Shown here one piece after another: positions 12,001 through 15,000 of a stretch of DNA of 15,302 nucleotides. This DNA is from a virus. Position 1 is the first letter of the stretch. Each line of letters starts with the position of its first letter. A program made the position numbers. The stretch lies in UHGV virus genome UHGV-1740366; one strand, written 5' to 3'.

Positions 12001-15000
12001 AAGAAGTAACAAAGTTAAAGAACCAGCTTGCACTTGACGCCAGAGTTATTGCGTTTGGCGGTAAAAAGAAAACTGAGGAAGTGGATCAGTTATCATCCAA
12101 GTTGGTAGCTATAAGTGAAGAACTTGGAAAGATGGGATGTTCATTTTACTCATACGATGTTAGTTCTACTTCAATTTATCTGACTGTATCTGGCAGAAGG
12201 GTTGGATGGCATTCATATGGGGAAGACGGCAACGGCAAAGATATATTGCTCCCTACTCCGATCAAAGATAAATGCATGTTTGACGCAGAACACGAAATAA
12301 CAAAAAGGTTTGATGAAATCTGCGCATTGCAACAAAAACTTGAAGCCAAGAAAAAGGATATCGAATCAAATGTATGGGCTGCTTTGAAATCAGTCACAAC
12401 AGTTAAGCGACTTATTGAAGTTTGGCCTGAAAGCAAAGAATTGCTACCAAAAGAAGCAGATAAAGCAAGTACAGCACTTCCTGCTTTACGGGTAGAAGAT
12501 TTGAATAAGATGATTGGACTTCCTTCCGAGGCCGCATAATCGGCCTTTATTTTTGGCATAAACAACAGAATAAACACTGCACTGTGTATTCATTCCAACG
12601 AGTGAATACACGGAACAATGTCGCTCGTAACTAAACAGGAGCCGACTTGTTCTGATTATTGGAAATCTTCTTTGCCCTCCAGTGTGAGGGCCTTTTTATA
12701 TGCATACCAATAACGCTTCACTCGAGGCGTTTTTCGTTATGTATAAATAAGGAGCACACCATGCAATATGCCATTGCAGGGTGGCCTGTTGCTGGCTGCC
12801 CTTCCGAATCTTTACTTGAACGAATCACCCGTAAATTACGTGACGGATGGAAACGCCTTATCGACATACTTAATCAGCCAGGAGTCCCAAAGAATGGATA
12901 AAACACTTATGGCTATCCAGACTAAATTCACTATCGCCGCTTTTATTGGCGATGAAAAGATGTTTCGTGAGGCCGTCGAAGCCTACAGAAAATGGAGGTC
13001 AAAATGATTCCGGTAGAACTGGCGAAAACTCCAGAGTTAAGTCGATTAAAAAGAGAATATCACATTGCTGAGGCTCGTTACTGGCGTAAAGCGGGAGATA
13101 AATCAAAGAAACAACTTTGCTTATGGCAGGCACAAAGAGAGCGCATGAATGAGCGTGAGTTTCTTTCCTCCCCATCCGAATTACCATTCTGAGGCAAATT
13201 ATGGGAACTGCGACATTAATACTCGGTGAATCTGGCACCGGAAAATCAACCAGCATGAGAAATATCAATCCAGAGGAAGCAATACTTATAAAACCAATAG
13301 GCAAGCCGCTTCCATTTAAATCAAAAGACTGGCTGGCATGGGATGCCAGAGCAAAAAAAGGAACCGTAGTTACCACTGACAAATGGGACGTAATAGTTGC
13401 CGTAATTAAGCGTGCTCACGAATACGGGAAAAGAATCGTTATTGTTGATGACTTCCAGTATGTGATGAGCAATGAGTTTATGCGCCGCTCAGAAGAAAAA
13501 TCGTTTGATAAATTCACTGAGATAGGCCGCCACGCATGGGAGGTGATTAAGGCTGCACAGGATGCACCTGATGACCTGAGAGTCTATTTTCTTGCACACA
13601 CCGAAGAAACCCCTATGGGGCGTGTGAAAATGAAGACTATCGGCAAAATGCTGGACGAGAAAATCACTGTCGAAGGCATGTTTACTATAGTTCTTCGCAC
13701 CCTTACCCGCGATGACCAGTTCTTTTTCACCACGAAAAACAACGGTGCAGACACTGTAAAATCCCCAATGGGAATGTTTGATTCTAATGAGATTGATAAC
13801 GATCTCTCTTTCGTCGATGCCACTGTTTGTGATTACTACGGCATCAATAATGTTCATCAAATTAAGGAAAACGCCGCATGAGCAACGTGATTTTTACTTA
13901 TAACGAAGAAGCAGCACTGACCGCAGGGCAAGGTGGTTTTATTAACGAAACTGGTGCTCATATCATTACCATTACTGAAGCAGAACTAAAGCAATCAGAA
14001 AAAGGAGCCAAATTTATTGAGTTTTCTGGCGAATCTGACGACGGACGTAAAATCCAATATCTTAGCGTCTGTGTTCAGAAAAATGACGGAACGGAAAACA
14101 AATTTGGCGCAAATGTCGTTCACGCCATGATGGGGTGTGCCGGGATTGGACAATTAACGCAACATATGGTTTCCGCCAGTAAATTTGTTGCTCCTGAGTT
14201 TCATGGAAAGAAAATCGGGTTAGTGCTCCAGAAAGTATTAACCACAAACAAAAAGACTGGCGCAGACAGCTACCAGATGGAAATACGCATCCCGTTTATT
14301 GCACAAACAGGTCAAACCCTTAAAGAAAAGGCGGAAGGCAAGCAACCAGAAACTATCGCCAACATGGTTGCCAGCCTCAAAGATAAAGACAATCGCTCTA
14401 AAAACGTAAGCCATAATCATGCAGATGATTATGGTTACAGCCAGAACGATTACCCTCCTTTCTGATTATTGAAAATAAGGCTCCCATTATGCCAGCGCCT
14501 CTGTATGGTGCGGATGACCCGCGCAATTGCTCCGGTAGCTCCAAGGCGGAGGTGCTGGAAAATATCAAAAACAATTTCGACGCGTTTCTTGCTCTGACAC
14601 CAGAAACAAAAGCAGAACGGATGTACCGACGCGATATACAACTCGCGCTAAAACAGGAGAAGGACCGAACAAACGAAACAGCAATGAGACCGTTGCGAAA
14701 AGCGACAATAGACAAATTCCCTGAATATATCGACCCGCGCCTGCGTAATTACCGCTCACGCTATGGCGCTATCAGTAATGACTGAGGAATTTACCATGAG
14801 AGGACTTGCATACAATCCCGGCATTCTTCCGGCAGAAATGATTATTCGCCAACGCGTAAAGCCAATGCCATCGAGAGAGGAATTGCTTAAGAGAAATTCT
14901 TTTCCATCAGTGAATCAAAACAAATATCTGAATGCGATGTTGCGGAGTGGGAAGAAATGAAACAAATGTCACTAATTGAGATGGATGGATTCCTGAAAGG

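What the first reader, a model, noticed from the sequence alone, without database searches (positions are those of the whole stretch)
13201..14465. Sak4-type ATPase plus SSB-like partner replace the lambda Red module
Downstream of cIII-kil, where lambda has gam-bet-exo, this phage carries a Walker A/B ATPase of Sak4 (RecA/Rad51-like annealase) type, translationally coupled to a 195-aa protein with an SSB-like acidic/aromatic C-terminal tail (DYPPF). Sak4 activity is known to depend on a cognate SSB. The partner here is not a canonical OB-fold SSB by eye, so it may be a divergent ssDNA-binding protein.
Basis: partly seen in the sequence, partly recalled or inferred. Interest (0 to 1): 0.5.

Follow-up and report, generated by a model that had tools for sequence, protein, structure and literature searches.

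The report
Known HK620-type Sak4–SSB recombination module
These two overlapping genes are near-identical copies of the Sak4 annealing ATPase and its partner single-strand-binding protein from coliphage HK620, a pair characterised biochemically in 2018, so the finding is correct but ordinary.

Summary
Two + strand ORFs, 13201..13881 (226 aa) and 13878..14465 (195 aa), overlap by ATGA and lie downstream of cIII and kil in a lambdoid early-left operon.

The interpretation also holds, but it is not new. ORF1 is 225/226 identical to HK620 HkaL (Sak4). ORF2 is 193/195 identical to HK620 HkaK (SSB_HK620), including the C-terminal NDYPPF. Hutinet et al. 2018 (PMC5928155) showed three things for this pair:
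- Sak4 is an ATP-dependent single-strand annealing protein.
- HkaK binds ssDNA and elutes as an apparent tetramer.
- The last six SSB residues recruit Sak4 to SSB-coated ssDNA and stimulate annealing and recombineering.

The full module here is hkaM–sak4–ssb–abc2. It has no Gam, Bet or Exo; Abc2 is an anti-RecBCD protein.

The same DNA is in 141 phage records and 195 of 5426 complete E. coli genomes.

One small loose end: the upstream 62-aa HkaM ends in a conserved SSB-tip-like [L/I/M]PF.

Verdict: already known, low interest.

The parts
12761..12901 (+). cIII (46 aa, short form as in HK620)
   Evidence: Pfam Lambda_CIII E 9.4e-31. The HK620 record notes the same shortened cIII.
12894..13007 (+). 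kil (37 aa)
   Evidence: Pfam Lambda_Kil E 3.6e-20 and phrog_2461. JEP4 annotates a Kil protein at the equivalent position.
13004..13192 (+). hkaM homologue (62 aa), first gene of the Rec module, function unknown. Its start overlaps the kil stop (ATGA). C-terminus is ...SPSELPF.
   Evidence: 61/62 identical to HK620 HkaM. phrog_1723. The C-terminal [L/I/M]PF is conserved in the 10 full-length homologues aligned.
13201..13881 (+). sak4 (hkaL homologue), 226-aa RecA-core-like ATP-dependent single-strand annealing protein
   Evidence: 225/226 identical to HK620 HkaL. phrog_2872 E 3.9e-108. Pfam AAA_24 30.2 bits against a cut-off of 27. Function shown for the HK620 protein in PMC5928155.
13225..13248 (+). 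Walker A motif GESGTGKS (residues 9-16 of Sak4)
   Evidence: Read from the translation. P-loop profile hits cover residues 2-24.
13435..13452 (+). Walker B motif IVIVDD (residues 79-84 of Sak4)
   Evidence: Read from the translation.
13878..14465 (+). ssb (hkaK homologue), 195-aa DUF669-type / 'SSB-2' single-strand DNA-binding protein. Predicted OB core at roughly residues 26-141, then a helical region and a disordered linker.
14445..14462 (+). SSB C-terminal hexapeptide NDYPPF, the Sak4-recruiting tail
   Evidence: Identical to the HK620 tail. Deleting that tail abolishes Sak4 binding to SSB-coated ssDNA and most of the stimulation (PMC5928155). The terminal F is nearly invariant across 40 homologues.
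14489..14785 (+). abc2, anti-RecBCD protein (98 aa), a divergent allele
   Evidence: Pfam Anti-RecBCD_p2 E 1.5e-35 and phrog_656 E 5e-45. Only 61% identical to HK620 Abc2. The divergent DNA patch lies at about 14500-14700.

Best explanation
This is the HK620-type homologous-recombination ('Rec') module of a lambdoid prophage or phage. It comprises hkaM, sak4, ssb and abc2, transcribed within the leftward early operon downstream of N, cIII and kil. The mechanism below was shown for the 99%-identical HK620 proteins and is inferred here by near-identity. The DUF669-type OB-fold SSB coats ssDNA and elutes as an apparent tetramer. Once it is DNA-bound, its C-terminal NDYPPF tip recruits Sak4, a RecA-core-only P-loop ATPase. 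Sak4 then anneals complementary single strands in an ATP-dependent manner but does not catalyse strand exchange. Abc2 binds host RecBCD (RecC subunit) and blocks its activation at Chi sites; the 2018 authors describe this as converting RecBCD into a 5'-3' exonuclease, so that the host enzyme supplies the resection that lambda obtains from Exo. Together the module does the job of lambda Gam/Bet/Exo with unrelated proteins. The ATGA overlap of sak4 and ssb probably couples their translation.
For: - ORFs, Walker motifs, tail and overlap are present.
- Identity to HK620: Sak4 225/226, SSB 193/195 with an identical NDYPPF, HkaM 61/62.
- Profile hits: phrog_2872 Sak4-like E 3.9e-108, phrog_743 SSB E 3.3e-66, Pfam AAA_24 above its cut-off, Pfam Anti-RecBCD_p2 E 1.5e-35.
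- DNA is collinear with HK620 from 12568 to 15070 at 94-100% identity, apart from a patch inside abc2.
- Published biochemistry and genetics for the HK620 pair (PMC5928155): ATP-dependent ssDNA binding and annealing by Sak4; ssDNA gel shift and an apparent tetramer for the SSB; 15-fold recombineering with sak4 alone against 210-fold with sak4+ssb; a 10-fold loss on deleting NDYPPF; Sak4 binds SSB-coated ssDNA only through the tail; no strand exchange.
- PMC12315714 lists HK620 Sak4 / 'SSB-2' / Abc2 as one of the lambdoid Rec module types.
- The SSB model is an OB fold.
- Operon context: the only promoter-like site in 11000-15302 lies upstream of N, with none inside the module, and there are terminator-like sites upstream of cIII as in HK620. 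This fits N-antiterminated pL transcription.
Against: - Nothing here contradicts it.
- Function is inferred from 99% identity and was not measured on this allele. It differs at Sak4 D43 (E in HK620) and at SSB E153 (V) and H179 (Q).
- The RecA-like fold of Sak4 could not be confirmed: the single-sequence AF2 model was poor (pLDDT 44) and the PDB sequence search returned no hits.
- The Abc2 allele is only 61% identical to the HK620/P22 type, so its effect on RecBCD is inferred from family membership alone.
- The role of the module in the phage life cycle (recombination or a replication-mode switch) is not settled in the literature.
Confidence: 0.95

Rival explanations
1. The pair serves mainly in phage DNA replication and not in recombination as such. 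It would drive fork restart or the theta-to-sigma switch, with the SSB acting as a replication SSB and Sak4 as a loader or mediator for host RecA or the replisome.
For: PMC12315714 notes that Rec-module genes have been implicated in the theta-to-rolling-circle switch in lambda. SSB_HK620 stimulated RecA-mediated strand exchange in vitro, according to the heading of section 11 in PMC5928155. The window also encodes its own primase/helicase and an O-like initiator.
Against: Sak4 did not stimulate RecA strand exchange, and recombineering was RecA-independent. The genes sit in the pL recombination module next to abc2, not with the replication genes on the other arm. This reading concerns physiological role and not molecular mechanism, so it does not exclude the main explanation.
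Confidence: 0.15
2. The ATPase is a generic P-loop NTPase of another family (AAA_22 or Zot-like, or a defence-associated ATPase) with no annealing role, and the adjacency to an SSB-like gene is coincidental.
For: Weak hits to several P-loop families: AAA_22 27.7 bits, Zot, ABC_tran, and PADLOC mad8 E 2e-5 over residues 1-23. RefSeq labels it only 'ATP-binding protein'.
Against: Those hits cover little beyond the Walker A segment. The full-length match is to the Sak4 PHROG (residues 1-220, E 3.9e-108). The protein is 99.6% identical to one with demonstrated annealing activity (PMC5928155). The sak4-ssb adjacency is reported for up to 80% of sak4 genes.
Confidence: 0.02
3. The genes are decayed remnants in a cryptic prophage and are no longer functional.
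For: The module is found only on chromosomes in E. coli genomes, which implies prophages. The window is a mosaic with no phage record covering 80% or more of it.
Against: All four ORFs are intact and full-length against HK620. The few substitutions in Sak4, SSB and HkaM are mostly conservative. Phage JEP4, deposited as a complete phage genome, carries the region at 99.8% DNA identity. The window keeps intact cI, cro-like, cII, N, O-like, primase/helicase and Q genes.
Confidence: 0.05

Closest known systems
Phage HK620 recombination module hkaM–hkaL(sak4)–hkaK(ssb)–hkaJ(abc2) (Clark et al. 2001 genome AF335538; Hutinet et al. 2018, PMC5928155)
   Same: Same gene order, the same ATGA overlap geometry (the HK620 CDS share 5065-5068) and the same position after cIII-kil. 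Sak4 is 99.6%, SSB 99.0% and HkaM 98% identical. The NDYPPF tail is identical.
   Different: Abc2 is a different allele (61% aa identity). The rest of the window (immunity region, replication genes, Nmad5 gene) is not HK620-like and resembles Stx-converting phages. Sak4 has one substitution and the SSB has two.
Lambda Red system (Gam, Bet, Exo)
   Same: Same genomic slot (pL operon downstream of cIII and kil). Same overall job: neutralise or redirect RecBCD and anneal ssDNA. Both support oligonucleotide recombineering.
   Different: No sequence or fold relationship. Bet is a Rad52-like, ATP-independent annealase, whereas Sak4 is a RecA-core ATPase that needs ATP and its own SSB. The module has no dedicated exonuclease. 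Abc2 modifies RecBCD, whereas Gam blocks it. Recombineering yield was lower than with Red at the galK locus.
P22 recombination module (arf, erf, abc1, abc2)
   Same: Same module layout, and Abc2 is a shared component (Pfam Anti-RecBCD_p2). The HK620 genes were first named after the P22 ones.
   Different: Erf (Rad52-like) is replaced by Sak4, Abc1 by an SSB and Arf by the unrelated HkaM.
PrgE of Enterococcus plasmid pCF10 (PDB 8s4s) and phage DUF669 / phage-annotated SSBs
   Different: PrgE binds ssDNA as a filament through an N-terminal tail and binds dsDNA equally well. SSB_HK620 eluted as an apparent tetramer and uses a C-terminal PF tip. Whether it shares the PrgE binding mode is unknown.
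E. coli SSB (Pfam PF00436)
   Same: OB fold (predicted here), apparent tetramer, two-step ssDNA gel shift, and an acidic/aromatic C-terminal tip ending in PF that recruits a partner.

Membership tests
Sak4 family (Lopes et al. 2010; PHROG 2872 / Pfam AAA_24) | Full-length profile match to the Sak4 family | tested here: met
   phrog_2872 E 3.9e-108 over residues 1-220 of 226. Pfam AAA_24 30.2 bits against a cut-off of 27.
Sak4 family (Lopes et al. 2010; PHROG 2872 / Pfam AAA_24) | Walker A and Walker B nucleotide-binding motifs | tested here: met
   GESGTGKS at residues 9-16 and IVIVDD at residues 79-84.
Sak4 family (Lopes et al. 2010; PHROG 2872 / Pfam AAA_24) | RecA/RadB-like core only, with no extra N- or C-terminal domain | tested here: inconclusive
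   The length (226 aa) fits a core-only protein. The single-sequence AF2 model was too poor to search (pLDDT 44), and the PDB sequence search found nothing at E<=1. Only sub-threshold NCBIfam hits to FlaH/ArlH (E 0.06-0.08). The published homology to the RecA core is taken from PMC5928155.
Sak4 family (Lopes et al. 2010; PHROG 2872 / Pfam AAA_24) | Near-identity to the experimentally characterised member (HK620 HkaL) | tested here: met
   225/226 identical, no gaps.
Sak4 family (Lopes et al. 2010; PHROG 2872 / Pfam AAA_24) | ssb gene adjacent (reported for up to 80% of sak4 genes) | tested here: met
   ssb starts inside the sak4 stop codon at 13878. The statistic is from PMC5928155.
Sak4 family (Lopes et al. 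2010; PHROG 2872 / Pfam AAA_24) | ATP-dependent ssDNA binding and single-strand annealing | not testable with these tools
   Shown for the HK620 protein in vitro and in vivo. Inferred here from 99.6% identity.
DUF669-type phage SSB ('SSB-2', SSB_HK620; PHROG 743) | Profile or sequence match to the family | tested here: met
   phrog_743 E 3.3e-66. 193/195 identical to HkaK. The sources name many of the homologues 'DUF669 domain-containing protein'. This copy of Pfam-A gave no hit at E<=0.1, so the DUF669 label rests on NCBI names and on PMC5928155.
DUF669-type phage SSB ('SSB-2', SSB_HK620; PHROG 743) | OB-fold core | tested here: met
DUF669-type phage SSB ('SSB-2', SSB_HK620; PHROG 743) | Disordered C-terminal tail ending in an acidic/aromatic tip (NDYPPF) that recruits Sak4 | tested here: met
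   The tail is identical to HK620. Residues 177-195 have pLDDT <50. The terminal F is nearly invariant in 40 homologues while the linker varies. The recruiting role comes from PMC5928155.
DUF669-type phage SSB ('SSB-2', SSB_HK620; PHROG 743) | ssDNA binding; apparent tetramer | not testable with these tools
   Shown for the HK620 protein by gel shift and size-exclusion chromatography.
Canonical bacterial SSB (Pfam PF00436) | Match to the SSB sequence profile | tested here: not met
   No Pfam or NCBIfam family at E<=0.1 or E<=1. No meaningful PDB sequence hit. So it works like an SSB and shares the fold, but it should not be filed in PF00436.
Lambda Red (Gam/Bet/Exo) | Presence of a Bet/RecT-type annealase, a lambda Exo-type exonuclease and Gam | tested here: not met
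   None of these families is hit by any ORF between N and the window end. The slot holds hkaM-sak4-ssb-abc2.
Abc2 anti-RecBCD (Pfam PF11043) | Full-length profile match | tested here: met
   E 1.5e-35 over residues 1-98 of 98. 61% identical to HK620 Abc2.

The most novel reading that the evidence does not exclude
The unexplored piece is HkaM (13004..13192), the 62-aa protein encoded immediately upstream. Its C-terminus (…SPSELPF) carries a conserved acidic/polar-[L/I/M]-P-F tip like that of E. coli SSB (DDDIPF) and SSB_HK620 (NDYPPF). Its homologues open Rec modules that hold an annealase of any family (Erf, two unrelated AAA_24/Sak4 types, Rad52-like) followed by an SSB gene. HkaM could therefore be an SSB-tail mimic or adaptor. 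It might compete with host SSB for its interactome (RecO, ExoI, PriA and others), or it might gate access of the phage annealase to SSB-coated ssDNA. That would make it a third, regulatory component of these modules. A lesser novelty: the DUF669 SSB may bind ssDNA in the PrgE-like filament mode and not by E. coli-style wrapping.
Probability: 0.12. Interest if true: 0.5.

Novelty: already known. Interest (0 to 1): 0.1.

Why it matters
It changes little. The pair is a textbook-level example (since 2018) of a phage RecA-core annealase that needs its own SSB. It is catalogued as one of the lambdoid Rec-module types, and it is common: 141 phage records and 195 of 5426 complete E. coli genomes. Three points have practical value:
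- Annotation. RefSeq still labels these genes 'ATP-binding protein' and 'hypothetical protein', and phage JEP4 labels them 'DNA binding ATPase' and 'hypothetical protein'. They can safely be renamed Sak4 and SSB (DUF669 type).
- Fold. The structure prediction supports an OB fold for the DUF669-type SSB, with PrgE as the nearest solved relative. [quoted passage not shown]
- HkaM. Its conserved SSB-tip-like end is a cheap hypothesis to test.

Tried and rejected
- Pfam and NCBIfam scans of the 195-aa partner gave no family. The DUF669 label could not be reproduced with this Pfam copy and rests on source names and the paper.
- Sequence searches of the PDB found nothing for Sak4 at E<=1 and only noise for the SSB (E 0.26 and worse against unrelated enzymes).
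- Single-sequence AF2 of Sak4 gave pLDDT 44, which is unusable, so no fold search was run on it. I ran no further search on Sak4, because 225/226 identity to the characterised protein already settles its identity.
- A PADLOC scan tested for a defence-system reading. Only a Walker-A-only hit to mad8 (E 2e-5, residues 1-23) appeared, with nothing for the SSB, HkaM or the Nmad5 protein. Rejected.
- I considered that the ATPase might be an AAA_22, Zot or ABC-type P-loop protein. Rejected, because those hits cover only the P-loop region while the Sak4 PHROG covers the full length.
- I considered a decayed prophage remnant. Rejected, because all ORFs are intact and phage JEP4, deposited as a complete genome, carries the region at 99.8% identity.

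Full report
**1. Observation**

The sequence reads ...GCC GCA TGA with ATG AGC AAC in the overlapping frame. The stop of the first gene and the start of the second therefore share ATGA at 13878-13881, and AAGGAA lies a few bases upstream. ORF1 carries a Walker A motif (GESGTGKS, residues 9-16) and a Walker B motif (IVIVDD, residues 79-84). ORF2 ends in ...DDYGYSQNDYPPF.

Upstream are cIII (12761..12901, Pfam Lambda_CIII E 9e-31) and kil (12894..13007, Pfam Lambda_Kil E 4e-20). A 62-aa gene (13004..13192) overlaps the kil stop, and abc2 (14489..14785, Pfam Anti-RecBCD_p2 E 1.5e-35) follows the partner gene.

**2. What it is**

PHROG profiles assign ORF1 to phrog_2872, 'Sak4-like ssDNA annealing protein' (E 3.9e-108, residues 1-220). 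They assign ORF2 to phrog_743, 'single strand DNA binding protein' (E 3.3e-66). Pfam places ORF1 in AAA_24 just above its gathering score and gives ORF2 nothing.

I fetched the HK620 genome (AF335538) and compared proteins directly.

| Window gene | HK620 protein | Identity |
|---|---|---|
| ORF1 (sak4) | HkaL | 225/226 |
| ORF2 (ssb) | HkaK, C-terminus NDYPPF identical | 193/195 |
| upstream small ORF | HkaM | 61/62 |
| abc2 | HkaJ/Abc2 | 60/98 (61%) |

At the DNA level the window is collinear with HK620 from 12568 to 15070. Identity is 94-100% per 100-nt bin, except for a divergent patch at about 14500-14700 inside abc2. The closest phage record over 13001-14700 is Escherichia phage JEP4 (99.8%), which annotates the two genes as 'DNA binding ATPase' and 'hypothetical protein'.

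The rest of the window is a lambdoid early region most similar to Stx-converting phages. It encodes Q, a NinI-like phosphatase, NinG, a methyltransferase, NinB, an HNH endonuclease, a primase/helicase, an O-like initiator, cII, a cro-like HTH protein, a cI-like repressor and N.

**3. How it works**

This exact pair was studied by Hutinet et al. 2018 (PMC5928155). For the HK620 proteins they showed the following.
- Sak4 binds ssDNA and anneals complementary strands only with ATP.
- HkaK, purified without a tag, elutes at about 95 kDa, an apparent tetramer. It shifts ssDNA in two steps like E. coli SSB, with about 4-fold lower affinity, and it blocks RecA-mediated annealing.
- Oligonucleotide recombineering rose 15-fold with sak4 alone and 210-fold with sak4 plus ssb. 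abc2 added nothing to sak4, and sak4+ssb alone matched the complete module, so hkaM added nothing detectable either.
- Deleting the last six SSB residues (NDYPPF) cut recombineering 10-fold, turned stimulation of annealing into inhibition, and abolished Sak4 binding to SSB-coated ssDNA.
- Sak4 with SSB does not catalyse strand exchange.

The window's proteins differ from these at one conservative position in Sak4 (D43, E in HK620) and at two positions in the SSB (E153, V in HK620; H179, Q in HK620). All three lie outside the Walker motifs and the tail. The mechanism therefore transfers by inference with high confidence.

Abc2 is the P22-type RecBCD modifier; this allele's function is inferred from family membership. 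The only promoter-like site in 11000-15302 lies upstream of N, with none inside the module. Terminator-like hairpins precede cIII, as annotated in HK620. This fits N-antiterminated pL transcription.

**4. The partner's fold**

The 2018 authors linked HkaK to SSBs only transitively, through N4 gp45 and the Lc-Nu and PhiAT3 SSBs, and could not link it to E. coli SSB by HHpred. [quoted passage not shown]

I collected 147 homologues, many of which the sources name 'DUF669 domain-containing protein'. I aligned 40 of them (55-86% identity; the terminal F is nearly invariant while the linker varies) and predicted the structure. The model has mean pLDDT 82, most core 10-residue blocks score 84-95, and residues 177-195 are disordered. 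The order of elements, β26-39, β45-53, β57-67, α75-88, β96-104, β112-123, β130-141, is the OB-fold topology.

The partner is therefore a divergent OB-fold SSB. It works like an SSB and shares the fold, but it is not a member of PF00436 by sequence.

**5. Comparison with known systems and novelty**

The module is a member of the HK620-type Rec module, not a variant of it. It is analogous to lambda Red (same slot, same job, unrelated proteins). It resembles the P22 module in layout, and Abc2 is the shared part.

It is common. The 1.7-kb query (13001-14700) matches 141 phage records, many of them Stx-converting phages. The 1265-nt pair occurs in 195 of 5426 complete E. coli genomes, always on the chromosome. 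RefSeq labels the two genes 'ATP-binding protein' and 'hypothetical protein'.

Novelty: already known. Interest is low.

**6. What did not work**

Single-sequence AF2 of Sak4 failed (pLDDT 44). PDB sequence searches were empty for Sak4 and returned only noise for the SSB. I therefore could not verify the RecA-core fold of Sak4 independently; it rests on the literature and on the AAA_24/PHROG assignments. PADLOC gave no defence-system reading.

**7. Side observations**

HkaM ends in ...SPSELPF. In the ten full-length homologues aligned, down to 61% identity, the tip is always polar or acidic followed by [L/I/M]-P-F (ELPF, DLPF, KIPF, RMPF), after a short variable stretch. This resembles the tip of E. 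coli SSB and of SSB_HK620.

Contigs encoding HkaM homologues place the gene as the first gene of Rec modules with different annealases:

| Locus | Genes after hkaM |
|---|---|
| L003 | HNH, Erf, canonical SSB |
| L004, L006 | AAA_24 protein of 287-290 aa, canonical SSB; the L004 protein has no pairwise similarity to HK620 Sak4 |
| L007, L008 | Rad52-type annealase, then a 191-aa protein; the L008 copy is 66% identical to the window's DUF669 SSB and ends in DMDY |

So HkaM accompanies annealase-plus-SSB pairs in general, and the DUF669 SSB is not exclusive to Sak4. An SSB-tail-mimic role for HkaM is a speculation worth a simple test. The 2018 recombineering data showed no contribution of hkaM in that assay.

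Noticed in passing
window 13004..13192 (+); related loci L003, L004, L006, L007, L008 at about 3001-3186: HkaM (62 aa, function unknown) ends in ...ELPF. The [L/I/M]PF tip is conserved in all 10 full-length homologues aligned and resembles SSB C-terminal tips (DDDIPF, NDYPPF). Its homologues are the first gene of Rec modules with Erf, AAA_24/Sak4-like or Rad52-like annealases, each followed by an SSB gene. It may be an SSB-tail mimic or adaptor. PHROG labels the family 'recombinase' (phrog_1723); I found no published evidence for that label, and PMC5928155 lists hkaM as of unknown function.
   Followed up: partly
window 14489..14785 (+), divergent patch at about 14500-14700: Abc2 is only 61% identical to HK620 Abc2, while the flanking DNA is 94-100% identical. 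The N-terminal 11 residues and the C-terminal ~20 residues are nearly identical to HK620, and the middle is replaced. This is a mosaic allele inside an anti-RecBCD gene. It might reflect adaptation to RecC variants or immune pressure.
   Followed up: partly
L008 3195..4518 (Salmonella enterica serovar Birkenhead contig) and L007: In L008, a DUF669-type SSB 66% identical to the window's SSB is paired with a Rad52_Rad22-family annealase, not Sak4. Its tail ends in ...GDMDY, not PF, which suggests the tail tip co-varies with the partner annealase. L007 has the same gene layout.
   Followed up: partly
window 11856..12539 (+), probably starting at the ATG at 11916: A 227-aa ORF between N and cIII matches Pfam Nmad5 ('nucleotide modification associated domain 5') at E 1e-70 and phrog_1965 (unknown function). 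A terminator-like hairpin overlaps its 3' end (12528..12547). HK620 has different genes in this slot. It looks like a moron-type insertion of unknown role.
   Followed up: no
window 9994..10329 and 10329..11012 (+): Two abutting genes (111 and 227 aa) lie directly downstream of the cI-like repressor and on the same strand. This is the slot where lambda carries rexAB. They have no informative family: phrog_14825 is of unknown function, and there is a sub-threshold coiled-coil Pfam hit and no PADLOC hit. A strong terminator-like hairpin follows at 11018. They are candidates for prophage-expressed exclusion or defence genes.
   Followed up: partly
window 4792..5403 (-): An HNH endonuclease gene (phrog_99 E 3e-71) sits in the lowest-GC stretch of the window (GC 0.35 at 5001-5500, against about 0.45-0.50 around it), between the primase/helicase gene and the nin region. 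It is probably a recently acquired homing-type insertion.
   Followed up: no
window 13201..14465; E. coli RefSeq hits H38-H45; phage JEP4 (L001 4201..5465): Public annotation lags behind the literature. RefSeq calls the pair 'ATP-binding protein' and 'hypothetical protein', and JEP4 calls them 'DNA binding ATPase' and 'hypothetical protein', although both functions were demonstrated in 2018.
   Followed up: yes
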